Virus record (IMG/VR): IMGVR_UViG_3300027779_002770
Coordinates: 18,660-82,659 of that record
Length of the DNA: 64,000 bases
Direction: 5' to 3' (one strand)
Source of the DNA: a virus
Made by a program: the position numbers and the translations under genes. The notes under the pieces are model-generated. The model was not told the origin of the DNA and did not search any database. It was given only the letters and a program-made list of their open reading frames with translations. Shown piece by piece: positions 41,845 through 56,485 of the stretch; position 1 is the first letter of the stretch, and the number at the start of each line of letters is the position of its first letter.

Positions 41845-42098
41845 AGTATGTGTTAGTGGATAATCATGACAATATCGTCCACACAGTTAGCTTACCTACT
41901 GAATATACTCAAGAAGAAGCACGATTATATTTTTTAAATTTAAAAAAAATAGATGACAAGTCCTTTGATGAGTTGTGGAAAGTTCATTCTTCAGAAGAAT
42001 GGAAAAATATTCAACATGCTCACCAAAGACCTCCATCATCATCTCCAAACAGGGATTGGTGGAAAGAAGAAGAGCCATGGTTAGATTTAGAAAAATGA
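41841..42098 (+). CDS. hypothetical protein
   Basis: SD GGAGG; ATGA-coupled at both ends. Confidence 0.55.
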   Translation: MKYVLVDNHDNIVHTVSLPTEYTQEEARLYFLNLKKIDDKSFDELWKVHSSEEWKNIQHAHQRPPSSSPNRDWWKEEEPWLDLEK

Positions 42099-42985
42099 TG
42101 AAAACATTTATAAGAAAACTCATATTTTGGTTTTGTATTTGTACAACATTTGTAGATGCTCAAACCTACACAGTAGGTGATATTGTAGATAATTTTGGTG
42201 CAGAGGCATGTGTTAACGGAGAAGGTTACTGGGATTACGATACAGATGGTTTAAACAAAATTGTATGGTTAAACTTATTCACATCATGGTGACCAAGTTG
42301 TCAAGCGGAGGCTCCGTTGTCAGAATTTATTCACCAATCATATCAAGACTTACCAGTAACAGTAATAGCCGCCGGAAGTGATTGGTCAACTTATAGTTGT
42401 GAGGGATGGGCAAATGCATTTGGAATAACGTATCCGATATTGGATGATGATGTTGGTACTATCTATCCCTTGTTTGGAACTGGATACATACCACACAATA
42501 TTGTAATCGATGGAAGCGGTGTAGTTTTATATTCCCAATCAGGTTTTAATCAAGATGCCATTCTTGCTGCAATACAAGAGGGATTATCTTATCTTGAAGT
42601 GGATACTGATAGTGATGGTCTATTAGATGAGTACGATAATTGTCCAGAAGATTACAACCCGAACCAAGATGATATTGATAATGATGGAGATGGAGATGCT
42701 TGTGATCAATGTAATAACTTAATATTTACTGGTGGTAATATTGATGGTAACGAAAGTATAGATATAATAGATGTACTAATGTTAGTAGATGTTATTTTAG
42801 GTGAGAATGAATATATTTGTTCATTCGAGGCGGGTGATATAACACAAGACGGATTTTTAAATGTTATGGATGTTATAGGTTTAATTCAAATAATAATGGG
42901 TAGTACTGAATCTCAAGCGATGATATGGATAGAAAAGAGCTTCGAATACATCCCAATGAACACAATCACTATTGATACACTTTGA
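42095..42985 (+). CDS. secreted thioredoxin-fold (TlpA/AhpC-like) selenoprotein with UxxC, TSP3-like Ca-binding repeats and dockerin-like domain
   Basis: In-frame TGA at 42290 gives FTSW-U-PSCQAE and joins two ORF-track ORFs; YIPHN.VID..G; DTDSDG..D..DNCP...NP.Q.D.D.DG.GDACD; GNIDGN..IDIIDV and GDITQDG.LNVMDV. Confidence 0.85.
42299..42322 (+). promoter_or_regulatory. bacterial SECIS-like hairpin
   Basis: TG-T-CAA-G-CGGA[GGC]TCCG-TTG-T-CA; G-led apical loop 17 nt after the TGA. Confidence 0.6.
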
Positions 42986-43116
42986 ATCATATTGTTACAC
43001 TAATAACACAATGTTACACTATATGTTATACTATAAAATATTTAAAATCAAAAGTTATGTTCAATAATATTGATACTTATAGAGTATTTTAAAATACTTT
43101 ACAAAATCAGCAGGGT

Positions 43117-43132
43117 TTGGCATAGTTTTTTC
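43117..43132 (+). promoter_or_regulatory. sigma54-like -24/-12 promoter upstream of the pilin operon
   Basis: TTGGCATAGTTTTTTC: -24 GG matches, -12 is TC instead of GC; TGTTA-N6-TAACA at 42993-43008. Confidence 0.45.
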
Positions 43133-43177: not shown

Positions 43178-43834
43178 ATGTTTAACAATTTAATGAAAAA
43201 AATAAAGAATAACAGAGGTAATTCACTTGCTGAATTCGCTGTTGTTACTGCAATGATGGCTACGATGGCTACTACTGCCGCCCCAAAATTTGGTGCTGTT
43301 GGTGATTCTGCTAAATCTAAAACATCAATTGCTAATCTAGATAAAATCAAGTCTGCAGCTAATAACTTTTATAACGCTGCTGTGTCTGAAGAAGGTCGTG
43401 GAAGATTTCCAGGACAAACTAAGTATGATGTAAAAGTTGGTGGATTTGATTTACCTGCTGAGACTACTACGGATATGGCATTGGAATTGTATTTAGAAAC
43501 TATTCTAAATTCTTATGAAGGATATGAAGCTGACTTAACTGATTTCGTATATGTATTCTCAACTTCAATAACTGATGAAGATGCTCTACAAGGTGATTGG
43601 ATGAGTGTTGATAATGATGGTGCACACCAGATAGATGCTGGATTTGATGAAGATGGTGCTTTAGATTTCAAAGAAAACTTTGGTAACTCAGGTATCTCAT
43701 CTCCGTTTCAGGATGGTGCTTACATCTATCTTGTTATACCAGGAAGTGGTAGTGGTTCAGACGCTCAAGCTCCTTGTATGATTATAGCAGATGCTGAGAA
43801 TCCTGCTGAAATGTACAAAGTATTAACACCTTAA
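43178..43834 (+). CDS. atypical type IV pilin-like protein
   Basis: Basic leader then G|NSLAEFAVV with E5, hydrophobic helix, Pro22, later GRFPG. Confidence 0.75.
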   Translation: MFNNLMKKIKNNRGNSLAEFAVVTAMMATMATTAAPKFGAVGDSAKSKTSIANLDKIKSAANNFYNAAVSEEGRGRFPGQTKYDVKVGGFDLPAETTTDMALELYLETILNSYEGYEADLTDFVYVFSTSITDEDALQGDWMSVDNDGAHQIDAGFDEDGALDFKENFGNSGISSPFQDGAYIYLVIPGSGSGSDAQAPCMIIADAENPAEMYKVLTP

Positions 43835-43849
43835 TTTTGTGAAAGGAGA

Positions 43850-44281
43850 ATGACAATGAGAAATAACAAAGGATTTACCCTTATTGAATTAATAATGGTT
43901 ACAATCATATTAGGTATTCTTGCTGCTGTCGCTATCCCTCGGTACATGACAACAGTTGCTAAAGCCGAATCGGCTGCAGAAAATGCAGTAATAGGTTCTA
44001 TATTGGCTGGTTTAGAAGTCTTTGCTACAGAACAATTGATGGATAATGGTCGAAGATCATGGCCTGATAATCCATTTGACGGTTTGGACACAAAGCCAAA
44101 TGGTTACACTACAGATGCAACTGATGCTAATGTTGACGGGGAGTGGACATTTAATACCACTTCACTAAAAATTACACATCAACGTCTTGATAATTCACGT
44201 GTTGGCTGGGTTTATGCTAAAGGCACACAAACAGGAGATGCTGCTAACGTGGGTACTCTCGGTGCTAGAGCAACTTTGTAG
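43850..44281 (+). CDS. type IV pilin
   Basis: KG|FTLIELIMVTIILGILAAVAIPRY class III signal peptide. Confidence 0.92.
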   Translation: MTMRNNKGFTLIELIMVTIILGILAAVAIPRYMTTVAKAESAAENAVIGSILAGLEVFATEQLMDNGRRSWPDNPFDGLDTKPNGYTTDATDANVDGEWTFNTTSLKITHQRLDNSRVGWVYAKGTQTGDAANVGTLGARATL

Positions 44282-44293
44282 AGGAGACTACTT

Positions 44294-44731
44294 ATGAATA
44301 ACTCTGCTGGATTCACTTTAGCGGAATTAGTCGTAACTATCGTATTGGTGGGGATACTTGCAGCAGCAGCTATCCCCACTTTTAATAATGTGATGGTATC
44401 AACTCAACTCCAAATAAACAAATCAAATATGGAAAGTATAAAGAATGCCTTTATGCGGTATTATTTTGTAACTCAAAATGATCCTCCACCAATACCAGAA
44501 AACCATTTGCTAGATTCAGAATACAAAGATTTAGTTTTACCTGACGGTAGAACACCCGATAATTTATTTAATGGTAAAGCTGGTTTACCTTATAATAGCA
44601 ATGGAGACCCTTATAGTTATTACCTAGAGAACGACACAAATTCCACAGGATTTGTAACACGGACAATAATAATAAAAGATATGAATACAGATAGCCCGTC
44701 ATACGAGGAATATGTAATCGGAGGGATTTAA
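44294..44731 (+). CDS. type IV pilin / pseudopilin
   Basis: AG|FTLAELVVTIVLVGILAAAAIP. Confidence 0.9.
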   Translation: MNNSAGFTLAELVVTIVLVGILAAAAIPTFNNVMVSTQLQINKSNMESIKNAFMRYYFVTQNDPPPIPENHLLDSEYKDLVLPDGRTPDNLFNGKAGLPYNSNGDPYSYYLENDTNSTGFVTRTIIIKDMNTDSPSYEEYVIGGI

Positions 44732-45126
44732 TGAACAGAGGATATACGCTGATCGAAATGGTCGTAGTTATTCTCATAATTGGTATTATGAGTGCAGTAG
44801 CAGTACCGAGATACCAAAGAATAATTGAATTAAAAGAATTAGAAGCTGAAACAGAATTTGTACATCAGATGTGGAAAGAATTAGAATTATATGCTGAAGA
44901 ACGATTTGTAGCAACAGGCACAGAGAGCTGGCCGGTAAATCCACTTTCTGTTTTAGGTCGCACAAGAGGTGTCATCGTTACTATGGACTTGGGAATACCC
45001 GATGAAGATAATGAATGGCAATTTGATGGAACTGACTTATTTCATAGGAGAAGGAACAATGAGACTTGGTATTTCAATTACACCCCTAGTAATTTTCATT
45101 TGTCTGAACTTCCAGTTAAGTTTTAG
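44731..45126 (+). CDS. type IV pilin / pseudopilin
   Basis: RG|YTLIEMVVVILIIGIMSAVAVPRY; WP.NP and W.F shared with the 43850 pilin. Confidence 0.9.
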   Translation: MNRGYTLIEMVVVILIIGIMSAVAVPRYQRIIELKELEAETEFVHQMWKELELYAEERFVATGTESWPVNPLSVLGRTRGVIVTMDLGIPDEDNEWQFDGTDLFHRRRNNETWYFNYTPSNFHLSELPVKF

Positions 45127-45442
45127 TCAAGATGAAGTTGACTTGGATTTTGATGCCATGTGGGATAATACTATATGGAACGAAATCGAAGATATAGCAG
45201 ATGAAGAAATACAAGAGGTAGATAACATAACAGCAACAGCTGGTGTTCGTGGAGCTGAAGCAGAAGATGAAGCGTTAGCACTATTGTATTATAGACGAAG
45301 TATGAAAGGACTATCCAAATTAGATTTACAAAAAGCATTAGGTAAGTTAATCATCAAGCGACAAAAGATGTCCGATGATAGCAATACAAAAAAGATAGAT
45401 GGTTATATTTTACAATTAAAAATAAAAATAAAGAAAGTATGA
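45059..45442 (+). CDS. secreted hypothetical protein
   Basis: Signal peptide from ATG 45059; TATAGVRG motif. Confidence 0.55.
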   Translation: MRLGISITPLVIFICLNFQLSFSQDEVDLDFDAMWDNTIWNEIEDIADEEIQEVDNITATAGVRGAEAEDEALALLYYRRSMKGLSKLDLQKALGKLIIKRQKMSDDSNTKKIDGYILQLKIKIKKV

Positions 45443-45882
45443 AAATTAATGAAGTTATAGAAGTTGGAATTGGTACATTAATCATTGTAATATTAAGCTC
45501 AGTATTAAACAAACATTTGAACACTGAAGCTGACAATAAGCCTGAAAATATAGAAGCTGCTTTTGATGATTATCCGTTAGTAGCATGGCCATCTACTCAA
45601 AAAAAATGGAATGGCGAAGAGGGTGATGTTATAAAAATTAAATATAGGGCTCAACATGAGAAGACGTTCATACAGGTACTAGATATTAATGGAAATGTCG
45701 TTCATAAGCAACCATACACTAGAAACCCATGGGAAGATGGCAGATACAGAGATTTTACATATCACTGGATGTTATATTATACAGAAGACTATGGACCTGA
45801 CATTCCACCGGGAGATTATCAAATACAGGTGTGTCACACCAATTCACTCAATGTTGATATGGTTCTGGATATATCAATTTAA
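45439..45882 (+). CDS. membrane-anchored protein with FlgD-like Ig domain
   Basis: N-terminal TM; I.V.DING.VV...W...PPGDY.I.V. Confidence 0.55.
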   Translation: MKINEVIEVGIGTLIIVILSSVLNKHLNTEADNKPENIEAAFDDYPLVAWPSTQKKWNGEEGDVIKIKYRAQHEKTFIQVLDINGNVVHKQPYTRNPWEDGRYRDFTYHWMLYYTEDYGPDIPPGDYQIQVCHTNSLNVDMVLDISI

Positions 45883-45892
45883 TCTTACAGAA

Positions 45893-45924
45893 ATGGGCCG
45901 CATTACACGGCCCATATCCTTTTT
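45893..45924. terminator. intrinsic terminator between convergent genes
   Basis: ATGGGCCG-CATTACA-CGGCCCAT 8-bp stem, then ATCCTTTTT. Confidence 0.7.
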
Positions 45925-45946: not shown

Positions 45947-46168
45947 TTATTTGCGGAACAATCCAACTAATACTAACATAGCAACTAAGCCAGCAAATCC
46001 GGAGGATCCGAATTTACTTATAATATTTGTTAGATTTCCAATAACATTTACACCGAAGATACCATTGCCGAAGAGGACTTCTGACATAGCACCAACCGCC
46101 ACAAAGGACATTAGTAGATGAACAAAGTCATCTATCCAATCCTTGACCATTGTGATAGTTTCTCTCAT
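45947..46168 (-). CDS. small membrane protein (only credible minus-strand gene)
   Basis: SD AAGGAG before ATG 46168; two hydrophobic segments; no + strand gene here. Confidence 0.7.
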   Translation of the reverse strand: MRETITMVKDWIDDFVHLLMSFVAVGAMSEVLFGNGIFGVNVIGNLTNIISKFGSSGFAGLVAMLVLVGLFRK

Positions 46169-46302
46169 GATGTTATTCTCCTTTTGTTCCAAAGAAAAAG
46201 AGGACTAACATAGCCCTCTTATGTTATCAATAAATAGTGTTATATATGTAAAAAAGTCTCCTGGACATTATCTTTTGCAATTAGGTTTAGATATATATTA
46301 AT

Positions 46303-55121: not shown

Positions 55122-55294
55122 ATAGCACGTCTAGCAAGACGTCGGTTTTACCTCGAGGGCCGCAGCCTAGAGCCCTACGGCTCAGAATCAGCAGTTACTA
55201 AACAAAAATACTTTCACTTTTAGCAAAAAAAGCCTTTCATCTTAAGCTTAGAATGCTTATATTAGGGCATCAAATACAAGAGGTTACACATCAA

Positions 55295-56485
55295 ATGAAA
55301 CAATACAATTTAACACCAGACACCGTCGTAGTAAAAATCGAGGCACGTGGTACGCGACTCGTAGCTATTGACGCTAAGGGTAACAAGGTTAACGGTCCTT
55401 CCAAAAAGTGGAAGACTACTGCCTTCGATACTAACTGTGCGCTAGCAGAGATCATAGGTTCAACCGGCAGGGGCTACTGGAGACCGGTAGAGATGGATGA
55501 GTTCAACAGCCGGGCTAACATACCTGCTCCAATGGAGCCGATTGAAGTACCCAACGATCATGGTGAAGTACTAGATTTTATCCATTCATCTTATAAGCTT
55601 AAACCGGCTAGCCTGGTTATGAATGAGTTGAAGTGGAAGTACCTTGTACGCTCTGCTGTACGTGGTAAGAATATTATGATGACCGGTCCTGCTGGTTGTG
55701 GTAAGACTATGGCTGCTAGAGCACTGGTTAAATCACTAGACAGACCGGACTTCTATTTTAATATGGGTGCTACCCAAGATCCCCGAGCTACCTTAATCGG
55801 CAACACACACTTTTCAAAGGACACTGGGACTTATTTCACTGAGTCAGCCTTTGTTAAAGCGATTATGACATCTAATGCCGTTATACTAATGGATGAGTTA
55901 TCCAGGGCTCACCCAGACGCATGGAACATCCTAATGACCGTGTTAGACGAAGGACAAAGATATCTTCGGTTGGATGAGGCAGAAGGACAGGCAACTATTA
56001 AGGTAGCTGAAGGGGTAACATTCATCGCGACTGCTAACGTTGGTAATGAGTACACCTCTACCAGAGTTATGGATAGAGCGCTAGTTGATAGGTTCACACA
56101 GATCGAGATGGATGTACTGAATAAAGATCAAGAAGCTGGACTACTTAAAGCACTCTACCCAGACGTAGACTTTAATATACTTGAGAACCTTGCTGAACTA
56201 TCCCATATAACTAGGGTAGAGTCACAAGGCGACGATGGTAAGTTATCAACCCACGTATCTACTAGAACATCAGTAGAAGCGGCAAGTCTAATACATGATG
56301 GCTTCACCCTTAGTGAAGCAGCCGAAGTAACAGTGCTACCCCGATTCGATAGTACAGGTGGGCTAGAATCAGAGAGAACCTACGTAAAGCAGGTCCTCCA
56401 GAAGTTCCTTAACGATGGCTCCTCCGATGAGTTATTCTCCGATGTAGAAGAAGATGCTGAAAATCTAATGGACTCCAGCATATAG
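55295..56485 (+). CDS. MoxR/CbbQ-type AAA+ ATPase (CobS-like)
   Basis: GPAGCGKT, ILMDELSR, IATAN.G.EY, DRALVDRF, STR; start moved to ATG 55295. Confidence 0.88.
   Translation: MKQYNLTPDTVVVKIEARGTRLVAIDAKGNKVNGPSKKWKTTAFDTNCALAEIIGSTGRGYWRPVEMDEFNSRANIPAPMEPIEVPNDHGEVLDFIHSSYKLKPASLVMNELKWKYLVRSAVRGKNIMMTGPAGCGKTMAARALVKSLDRPDFYFNMGATQDPRATLIGNTHFSKDTGTYFTESAFVKAIMTSNAVILMDELSRAHPDAWNILMTVLDEGQRYLRLDEAEGQATIKVAEGVTFIATANVGNEYTSTRVMDRALVDRFTQIEMDVLNKDQEAGLLKALYPDVDFNILENLAELSHITRVESQGDDGKLSTHVSTRTSVEAASLIHDGFTLSEAAEVTVLPRFDSTGGLESERTYVKQVLQKFLNDGSSDELFSDVEEDAENLMDSSI

What the first reader, a model, noticed from the sequence alone, without database searches (positions are those of the whole stretch)
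43178..45882. Phage-borne operon of four type IV pilins with no assembly machinery
Seen: four tandem class III signal-peptide proteins (G|NSLAEF, G|FTLIEL, G|FTLAEL, G|YTLIEM), then a secreted protein and a membrane-anchored FlgD-Ig-like protein, closed by a terminator. No prepilin peptidase, ATPase, platform or secretin is in the window, and phage-type genes flank both sides. The first pilin has Asn at +1 in place of Phe. Known: type IV pili are common phage receptors, and pilins need host PilD and assembly proteins. Inference: the phage feeds its own pilins into the host pilus, for superinfection exclusion by receptor swapping or jamming, or to alter adhesion or DNA uptake.
Basis: partly seen in the sequence, partly recalled or inferred. 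Interest (0 to 1): 0.8.

Follow-up and report, generated by a model that had tools for sequence, protein, structure and literature searches.

The report
Ocean phage carries host pilus-subunit operon
A large uncultured ocean phage carries four pilus-subunit genes copied from the pilus locus of its probable host, the uncultured SAR406 (Marinimicrobia) bacteria, but none of the pilus-building machinery, so infected cells most likely put phage-made subunits into their own pili, a trick with a recent laboratory precedent.

Summary
Genes p1-p4 (43178-45126) all carry a class III (prepilin) signal. A signal-peptide protein (p5), a membrane-anchored Ig-like protein (p6) and a terminator follow them.

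The window is part of an IMG/VR viral contig that is about 41% complete. Prepilin peptidase, ATPase, platform and secretin are absent from it, and also from related records that are 70% and 47% complete.

The genes come from the host. Marinimicrobia (SAR406) genomes have PilD, a PilB-like ATPase, a sigma-54 activator, PilC, then p1 x2-5, p2, p3, minor pilins and a nearby secretin. Each host p1 has a TGGCAC-N5-TTGC promoter. The phages keep a TGGYAY-N5-TTGT version; the window's copy is weaker.

The Asn at +1 of p1 is a trait of the host family, not a phage change. p4, p5 and p6 occur only in phages. All six genes are under purifying selection (dN/dS 0.11-0.30), and the cassette recurs in thousands of marine metagenome clusters.

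The most likely mechanism is that host machinery assembles the phage pilins, probably to re-surface a receptor. This has a precedent in P-FimU/P-PilA (Sztanko 2026). It is therefore a new variant of a known kind.

This scan has already reported the same cassette on at least eight other genomes.

The parts
42993..43008 (+). Inverted repeat TGTTACACTAATAACA (TGT-N10-ACA), about 185 nt upstream of p1. It is a possible activator site.
   Evidence: Sequence. A similar palindrome, TGTTACAATAGTAACA, lies upstream of p1 in L009. It was not found in the other phage loci or in the host loci tested. Weak evidence.
43118..43132 (+). Sigma-54-like -24/-12 element TGGCAT-N5-TTTC, 60 nt upstream of the p1 ATG. 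It is degraded at -12.
   Evidence: Hosts have TGGCAY-N5-TTGC before 19 of 21 p1 copies. Nine of ten phage relatives have TGGYAY-N5-TTGT at the same place. The window's copy has two mismatches to the consensus.
43178..43834 (+). p1: a 218-aa type IV pilin of the Marinimicrobia 'G|(N/Q)SLAEF' family, probably major-type.
   Evidence: More than 3,200 90%-identity clusters. G(-1) and E(+5) are invariant. The family profile hits solved pilin N-termini.
43850..44281 (+). p2: a 143-aa prepilin (G|FTLIEL), 55-73% identical to the single p2 gene of Marinimicrobia loci.
44294..44731 (+). p3: a 145-aa prepilin (G|FTLAEL), 31-39% identical to the host p3.
44731..45126 (+). p4: a 131-aa prepilin (G|YTLIEM). 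It is a phage-only paralogue of p2 and is present in every phage variant of the cassette.
   Evidence: phage-only clade, support 100; 675 clusters.
45059..45442 (+). p5: an exported protein of about 127 aa with a signal peptide. It is found only in phages. An alternative start is at 45158.
   Evidence: In relatives the longer open frame carries the same signal peptide.
45439..45882 (+). p6: a 147-aa protein with an N-terminal transmembrane helix and a C-terminal Ig-like beta-sandwich. It is found only in phages.
45893..45915 (+). Intrinsic-terminator-like hairpin that closes the operon.
45947..46192 (-). An 81-aa membrane protein on the opposite strand. It travels with the cassette in relatives. 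Function unknown.
   Evidence: 69-87% identical, directly downstream of p6 in L002-L005, L012 and L015.

Best explanation
This is a host-derived pilin cassette of a large contractile-tailed marine phage that infects Marinimicrobia (SAR406).

Shown:
- p1, p2 and p3 are homologues of the pilin block of a complete Marinimicrobia type IV filament locus. That locus reads PilD, PilB-like ATPase, sigma-54 activator, PilC, p1 xN, p2, p3, GspH-like and other minor pilins, with a secretin nearby.
- p4 is a phage-only offshoot of p2.
- p5 and p6 are phage-only envelope proteins.
- The cassette carries a sigma-54-type promoter of the host's kind.
- The phage has no assembly genes in the parts of its genome available here.

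Inferred:
- During infection, host RNA polymerase with sigma-54 transcribes the operon.
- Host PilD cleaves the prepilins at Gly(-1).
- The host ATPase and platform polymerise them onto the host's own minor-pilin tip complex, so the filament becomes coated with phage subunits.
- The most likely benefit is receptor replacement. A pilus that still works is no longer recognised by competing phages, or by the phage's own progeny. Prophage-encoded FimU does this in Pseudomonas.
For: Phage context:
- The window lies on an IMG/VR virus record.
- DnaB, RNR, DNA polymerase and ligase are in the window.
- A gp25 baseplate gene sits next to the cassette in relatives.

Pilin identity.

Host origin:
- p1 homologues occur in about 40 Marinimicrobia MAGs and single-cell genomes, on contigs of up to 583 kb.
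- The host gene order p1 xN, p2, p3 was seen.
- PilD and the ATPase lie immediately upstream. The full L025 locus was annotated.
- The hosts have a nearby secretin and RpoN.
- Phage p2 sequences sit among the host p2 sequences in the tree.

Promoter.

No machinery was found in G000, G001 (70% complete), G002 (47%) and smaller records. These records overlap to span about 180-190 kb.

Purifying selection: dN/dS is 0.11-0.30 for all six genes.

The cassette recurs in 16 IMG/VR contigs and thousands of metagenome clusters.

Precedent for receptor replacement by a phage-encoded pilus subunit: PMC12952977.
Against: - There are no expression, processing or assembly data.
- No genome of this phage group in hand is complete, so machinery elsewhere is unlikely but not excluded.
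- In the window the -12 promoter element is degraded (TTTC). All phage copies depart from the host's GC at -12, so dependence on sigma-54 is not certain.
- It is not known whether any phage uses this filament as a receptor.
- The host filament cannot be typed. Its ATPase and platform fall below the equivalog cut-offs for both PilB and GspE/GspF. It could be a secretion pseudopilus rather than a surface pilus.
- The roles of p4, p5 and p6 are unexplained.
Confidence: 0.6

Rival explanations
1. Auxiliary-gene reading. The phage supplies pilins to keep the host filament running, or to boost it, while host gene expression collapses. The filament's normal function would then continue to feed the infection. 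That function could be particle attachment, DNA or nutrient uptake, or secretion of glycan-degrading enzymes if it is a T2SS-like pseudopilus.
For: - The cassette copies the abundant, major-type subunits (p1, p2) rather than the tip minor pilins.
- In L025 the host locus lies next to a fucosidase, a GH109 enzyme and a sugar symporter.
- The window is full of other host-like auxiliary genes, including glycosyltransferases, an aminotransferase and KdsA-like genes.
- The best partial family hit for p2 is GspG.
Against: - Phage p1 is only 35-48% identical to host p1, and p4 is a long-branch phage-only pilin. That points to changed rather than merely replenished subunits.
- Hosts already carry 2-5 p1 copies.
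Confidence: 0.22
2. Poison-subunit reading. One or more of the phage pilins (for example the phage-only p4), helped by p5 and p6, jams assembly or retraction and so removes the filament from infected cells. This would block superinfection and prevent loss of progeny on cell debris.
For: - p4, p5 and p6 have no host counterpart and always travel together.
- Sztanko et al. note truncated PilA-like phage proteins that might inhibit assembly.
- Other phage proteins are known to shut down type IV pili (introduction of PMC12952977).
Against: - All four pilins are full length, with an intact G(-1), E(+5) and head domain, and are under purifying selection across their whole length.
- One inhibitor would suffice, yet the phage keeps two to four pilins.
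Confidence: 0.12
3. Virion or artefact reading. Either the pilin-like proteins are structural parts of the phage particle, because the cassette abuts the baseplate module in most relatives, or the block is a chimeric host insert or decaying cargo.
For: The cassette lies directly upstream of the baseplate genes in L003, L012 and L015.
Against: - In the window the cassette sits in the auxiliary and replication arm, far from any structural gene.
- Class III signals direct proteins into the inner membrane, which does not suit virion assembly.
- Both flanks of the cassette in G000 map to one region of the related record G001.
- The same cassette occurs on 16 viral contigs.
- dN/dS is 0.11-0.30.
Confidence: 0.04

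Closest known systems
P-FimU and P-PilA: pilus subunits encoded by Pseudomonas aeruginosa F10-like prophages, Xylella prophages and four groups of virulent phages (Sztanko et al., Cell Rep 2026, PMC12952977)
   Same: - A phage carries a homologue of a host type IV pilus subunit but no machinery.
- P-FimU is built into the host pilus, leaves it functional and blocks phages that bind there.
- The paper also reports PilA-like (major pilin) genes in non-temperate phages.
   Different: - Here there is an operon of two to four pilins plus two phage-only envelope proteins, not a single gene.
- The copied subunits are major-type (p1, p2), not the GspH/FimU-type tip pilin, which the phage did not copy.
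- A sigma-54-type promoter came with them.
- The host is an uncultured phylum, and the phage is a roughly 190-kb marine phage with no sign of lysogeny in the parts seen.
- Function is untested.
Marinimicrobia (SAR406) type IV filament locus: PilD, PilB-like ATPase, sigma-54 activator, PilC, p1 xN, p2, p3, minor pilins, secretin
   Same: - The pilin families and their order (p1, p2, p3) are the same.
- The unusual p1 signal G|(N/Q)SLAEF is shared.
- The promoter has the same type and position.
   Different: - The phage lacks the peptidase, ATPase, activator, platform, GspH-like and other minor pilins, the LamG protein and the secretin.
- It adds p4, p5 and p6.
- Its -12 element reads GT (TC in the window) instead of GC.
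Phage superinfection-exclusion proteins that disable type IV pili (Tip, Zip, Aqs1 of Pseudomonas phages; cited in PMC12952977 and in bioRxiv 10.1101/2024.03.05.583538)
   Same: A phage-encoded factor changes the pilus of the infected or lysogenised cell to keep other phages out.
   Different: Those are small cytoplasmic proteins that target PilB or PilZ and abolish pilus function. The genes here are pilus subunits themselves.
T2SS major pseudopilin GspG
   Same: The best partial NCBIfam match for p2 and p3 is GspG. They are short pilins of about 140 aa with G|FTLIEL.
   Different: The scores (40.9 and 29.6 bits) are far below the equivalog cut-off of 88.85. The match covers mainly the N-terminal helix. 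The host ATPase scores slightly better as PilB than as GspE.

Membership tests
Type IV pilin / pseudopilin (type IV filament superfamily) | Short basic leader ending in Gly(-1), cleaved by a prepilin peptidase | tested here: met
   The motif is present in all four: RG|NSLAEF, KG|FTLIEL, AG|FTLAEL, RG|YTLIEM. Gly is invariant in the p1 family. Cleavage itself was not tested.
Type IV pilin / pseudopilin (type IV filament superfamily) | Glu at +5 and a hydrophobic N-terminal helix of about 20 residues (Pfam N_methyl / TIGR02532) | tested here: met
   p2-p4 are above both cut-offs. p1 has no Pfam hit, but its family profile aligns in register with solved pilins at E=9e-7 and has an invariant E(+5).
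Type IV pilin / pseudopilin (type IV filament superfamily) | Hydrophobic +1 residue (Phe or Met) that is N-methylated | tested here: inconclusive
   p2-p4 have F, F and Y. p1 has Asn. Among host p1 proteins, +1 is N (37), Q (24), A, S, E or G. This is a non-canonical but family-wide feature. Methylation cannot be tested here.
Type IV pilin / pseudopilin (type IV filament superfamily) | Lollipop fold: a long alpha-1 helix packed on a beta-sheet head | tested here: inconclusive
   The p1 model has helix 13-72 plus strands, at pLDDT 66. Foldseek against the PDB found no significant match to the head.
Phage-encoded receptor-replacing pilus subunit (P-FimU / P-PilA kind) | The phage gene is a homologue of a pilus subunit of its own host, and the phage has no assembly genes | tested here: met
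   homology; no machinery. Caveat: the genomes are 41-70% complete.
Phage-encoded receptor-replacing pilus subunit (P-FimU / P-PilA kind) | The subunit is incorporated into the host pilus, and phages that bind it are blocked | not testable with these tools
   This needs expression in a piliated host plus adsorption assays. The host is uncultured.
Phage-encoded receptor-replacing pilus subunit (P-FimU / P-PilA kind) | FimU/GspH-type tip minor pilin (for P-FimU specifically) | tested here: not met
   p1-p4 give only weak GspH hits confined to the N-terminal helix. The host's GspH-domain gene (L025 11938-12462) has no phage copy. The cassette therefore resembles P-PilA, not P-FimU.
T2SS major pseudopilin GspG (TIGR01710) | Score above the equivalog cut-off of 88.85 bits | tested here: not met
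   p2 scores 40.9, p3 29.6 and p4 28.8 bits.
Sigma-54-dependent promoter | GG at -24 and GC at -12 with fixed spacing (TGGCAC-N5-TTGC) | tested here: inconclusive
   The window has TGGCAT-N5-TTTC: GG is present, but -12 reads TC. Relatives have TTGT and hosts TTGC, at matching distances from the ATG. The hosts have RpoN. No phage-encoded activator was found.
FlgD Ig-like domain (PF13860), for p6 | Score above the gathering cut-off of 27 bits | tested here: not met
   The score is 17.3 bits. The model is a generic Ig-like sandwich. Its best match, the PorU C-terminal domain, has Z 8.3, rmsd 2.9 over 88 residues, which is within the tool's stated noise range.

The most novel reading that the evidence does not exclude
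The phage-only core of the cassette (p1, p4, p5, p6) may do more than disguise the host pilus. It may redirect the host machine to build a filament that the phage specifies, with a function of its own. Possible functions are tethering infected cells to particles or to neighbouring cells, or pulling in DNA for nucleotide supply. In this reading, p5 and p6 act as periplasmic and membrane adaptors that favour phage pilins over host pilins, and the altered -12 promoter element frees expression from the host's activator.
Probability: 0.12. Interest if true: 0.85.

Novelty: new variant of a known kind. Interest (0 to 1): 0.55.

Why it matters
SAR406 (Marinimicrobia) is one of the most abundant uncultured bacterial groups of the dark ocean, and almost nothing is known about its phages or its surface structures.

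This cassette gives a sequence-based link between an abundant phage group of about 190 kb and that host. It also identifies a previously unannotated pilin family, G|(N/Q)SLAEF, which has no Pfam model, as the multi-copy subunit of a sigma-54-controlled filament.

Finally, it extends the recently shown receptor-replacement defence from single prophage genes in Pseudomonas to a multi-gene operon in a widespread marine phage. If this is confirmed, competition between phages over pili would be a general force in the ocean.

Tried and rejected
I could not read the 191-kb and 168-kb contigs that carry p1 and p4 relatives (P0038, P0073, P0320). These would be the best test of 'no machinery anywhere'.
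- Foldseek of the p1 model against the PDB gave nothing significant.
- I considered reading p1's signal as TadE/Flp-like and dropped it. Pfam gave no match to p1 at all, even at E<=1, and the family profile aligns with type IVa pilins.
- A possible phage-encoded sigma-54 activator (Sigma54_activat hit at window 55649-55981) is an AAA_5 / MoxR-CbbQ-type ATPase, not an enhancer-binding protein.
- The TGT-N10-ACA 'enhancer' upstream of p1 recurs in only one other phage lineage and not in hosts. I left it as a weak lead.
- PHROG scans of ten large ORFs from the structural arm of G002 mostly gave nothing. I can say the phage has a gp25-type baseplate, but I did not verify that it is 'T4-like'.
- The protein atlas gave only viral hypothetical proteins for p6 and nothing for p5.
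- The careful maximum-likelihood tree did not finish in time. The quick tree is what I cite.
- Literature searches for phage pilins in marine, jumbo or Marinimicrobia phages found nothing specific.
Full report
**What is there.** The stretch 43178-45882 holds six co-directional, tightly packed ORFs.
- p2 (43850-44281), p3 (44294-44731) and p4 (44731-45126) pass the Pfam N_methyl cut-off (34.1, 30.8 and 29.3 bits against 21.2) and TIGR02532.
- p1 (43178-43834, G|NSLAEF) has no Pfam or PHROG hit.
- The p1 family has more than 3,200 90%-identity clusters in marine metagenomes and 281 50%-identity clusters. In a diverse 23-sequence alignment, Gly(-1) and Glu(+5) are invariant.
- A profile of that alignment matches the N-terminal helix of solved type IV pilins in register: Geobacter PilA-N E=9e-7, Myxococcus PilA 1.7e-4, MshA 3.8e-4.
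- The AlphaFold model of p1 has a helix at residues 13-72 and a small alpha/beta head (pLDDT 66). The head has no significant Foldseek match.
- So all four genes are prepilins. p2 and p4 are paralogues, 37% identical.

**The two non-pilin genes and the terminator.**
- p5 has a signal peptide only if it starts at 45059, inside p4. Relatives keep that longer open frame with the same signal peptide. One database calls the gene from Met-34 instead.
- p6 is a transmembrane helix plus an Ig-like sandwich (pLDDT 61). Its FlgD_ig score is below the cut-off, and its structural matches are generic.
- A terminator-like hairpin follows at 45893-45915.

**Phage context.**
- The window is bases 18660-82659 of an IMG/VR virus record of 82.7 kb that CheckV rates about 41% complete.
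- It encodes a DnaB-type helicase, ribonucleotide reductase, a 1,211-aa DNA polymerase, a DNA ligase and many auxiliary genes, nearly all on one strand.
- Sixteen other IMG/VR contigs carry the cassette. In most of them it lies directly upstream of a baseplate module with a gp25 homologue.
- In the window it sits elsewhere, in the auxiliary arm. Both of its flanks map to one region of the related 131-kb record G001, which carries its own cassette at a different site. The cassette has therefore moved as a unit, together with the minus-strand 81-aa gene. The window is not a chimera of unrelated genomes.

**Variation and selection.**
- Some lineages have p1-p2-p3-p4. Others have only p1 plus a p4-type pilin. 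All have p5 and p6 where the contig reaches that far.
- In a quick maximum-likelihood tree, the p4-type pilins form a phage-only clade (support 100), while phage p2 sequences sit among the host p2 sequences.
- p5 and p6 have no counterpart in any cellular locus fetched.
- Pairwise dN/dS against two relatives is 0.11-0.30 for all six genes, so nothing is decaying.

**No machinery.** Peptidase_A24, T2SSE, T2SSF and secretin are absent from the window's record and from related records that are 70%, 47%, 24% and 15% complete. G000, G001 and G002 overlap so as to span roughly 180-190 kb, which fits the 191-kb contig on which p1 and p4 relatives were seen. The absence is therefore strong but not absolute.

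**Origin and host.**
- A scan of one genome per prokaryotic species found p1 homologues (35-48% identity) almost only in Marinimicrobia (Neomarinimicrobiota, SAR406) MAGs and single-cell genomes, on contigs of up to 583 kb.
- The order in those genomes is two to five tandem p1 copies, then p2 (55-73% identical to the phage's), then p3.
- The L025 locus reads: response regulator, prepilin peptidase, MshEN+T2SSE ATPase, sigma-54 activator, T2SSF platform, p1 x4, p2, p3, a GspH-domain minor pilin, two more N_methyl proteins, and a LamG protein.
- The same PilD-ATPase-pilin order holds in four other genomes. Each has a secretin of about 440 aa some 10 kb away and an rpoN gene.
- The non-Phe +1 residue of p1 is the rule in the hosts (N 37, Q 24, A 7, S 5, and others). 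It is not a phage innovation.

**Promoter.**
- Nineteen of 21 host p1 copies are preceded, 30-99 nt upstream, by TGGCAY-N5-TTGC.
- Nine of ten phage loci have TGGYAY-N5-TTGT at 53-82 nt, followed by a phage-specific ATATAGG box.
- The window has TGGCAT-N5-TTTC at 43118.
- The element was evidently copied with the genes but is consistently altered at -12.
- The phages encode no sigma-54 activator. A weak hit in the window is an AAA_5/MoxR-type ATPase.

**Mechanism.**
- Shown: host-derived prepilins, a host-type promoter, no phage machinery, purifying selection and high abundance.
- Inferred: host PilD processes the prepilins, and the host ATPase and platform assemble them onto the host's own tip complex, which re-surfaces the filament.
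- The best-supported benefit is receptor replacement. Sztanko et al. (PMC12952977) showed that prophage FimU-like proteins enter the Pseudomonas pilus, keep it functional and block tip-binding phages. They also list PilA-like genes in Xylella prophages and in four groups of virulent phages.
- Rival readings are maintenance or boosting of the filament as an auxiliary function, poisoning of assembly, and a virion role. The first two remain open. The last is unlikely.

**Novelty.** The principle is known. New here are the multi-gene operon of major-type pilins, the phage-only p4, p5 and p6, the co-transferred sigma-54-type promoter, the unannotated p1 family, and the link to SAR406. This scan has already reported the same cassette, with the same reading, on at least eight other genomes. 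My analysis reached the host locus and the promoter independently before I read those notes. I took the paper lead from them and checked the paper myself.

Noticed in passing
window 41975-42985 and L006 2663-3790: The thioredoxin-like gene just upstream of the cassette is split by a single in-frame stop right after '...FTSW'. The 54-58% identical homologue in relative L006 is split at the same position. I did not look for a SECIS element.
   Followed up: partly
L046 10001-16069 and L050 10001-20616: Two non-Marinimicrobia-labelled marine MAGs (MED-G177, B_MB92) carry very long tandem arrays of p2-type pilin genes downstream of PilD and the ATPase: about 8 and about 17 copies, after 2-3 p1 copies. 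This is an unusual degree of pilin multiplication.
   Followed up: partly
window 45947-46192 (-): An 81-aa two-helix membrane protein is encoded on the opposite strand in an otherwise one-strand region. It stays next to p6 in relatives even where the cassette sits at a different genome position. It has its own terminator-like hairpin at 46220-46198. Function unknown.
   Followed up: partly
window 55253-56485: A 410-aa AAA_5 / MoxR-CbbQ-GvpN-like ATPase, with a syntenic counterpart in G001. The 694-aa ORF at 49006-51090 hits a PHROG annotated as a cobalamin-biosynthesis protein. Together they may form a CobS/CobT-like pair of the kind seen in large phages.
   Followed up: partly
window 43083-43098: A perfect 16-bp palindrome, AGTATTTTAAAATACT, lies between the upstream repeats and the sigma-54-like element. 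I did not check whether it is conserved in relatives.
   Followed up: no
L006 8344-9078, also L010, L011 and L012: In most relatives a conserved 244-aa protein with no Pfam hit lies directly upstream of p1, at the boundary with the structural module. It is absent from the window's record. It could be a regulator of late genes. Untested.
   Followed up: no
L021 (MAG labelled Methanobacteriota), L065 (Dehalococcoidia), L062 (Nitrospinaceae) and the NCBI 'Woesearchaeota' proteins: Several MAGs of unrelated phyla hold contigs with this pilin locus or with the phage cassette. These look like binning errors, either Marinimicrobia or phage contigs, rather than true occurrences.
   Followed up: no
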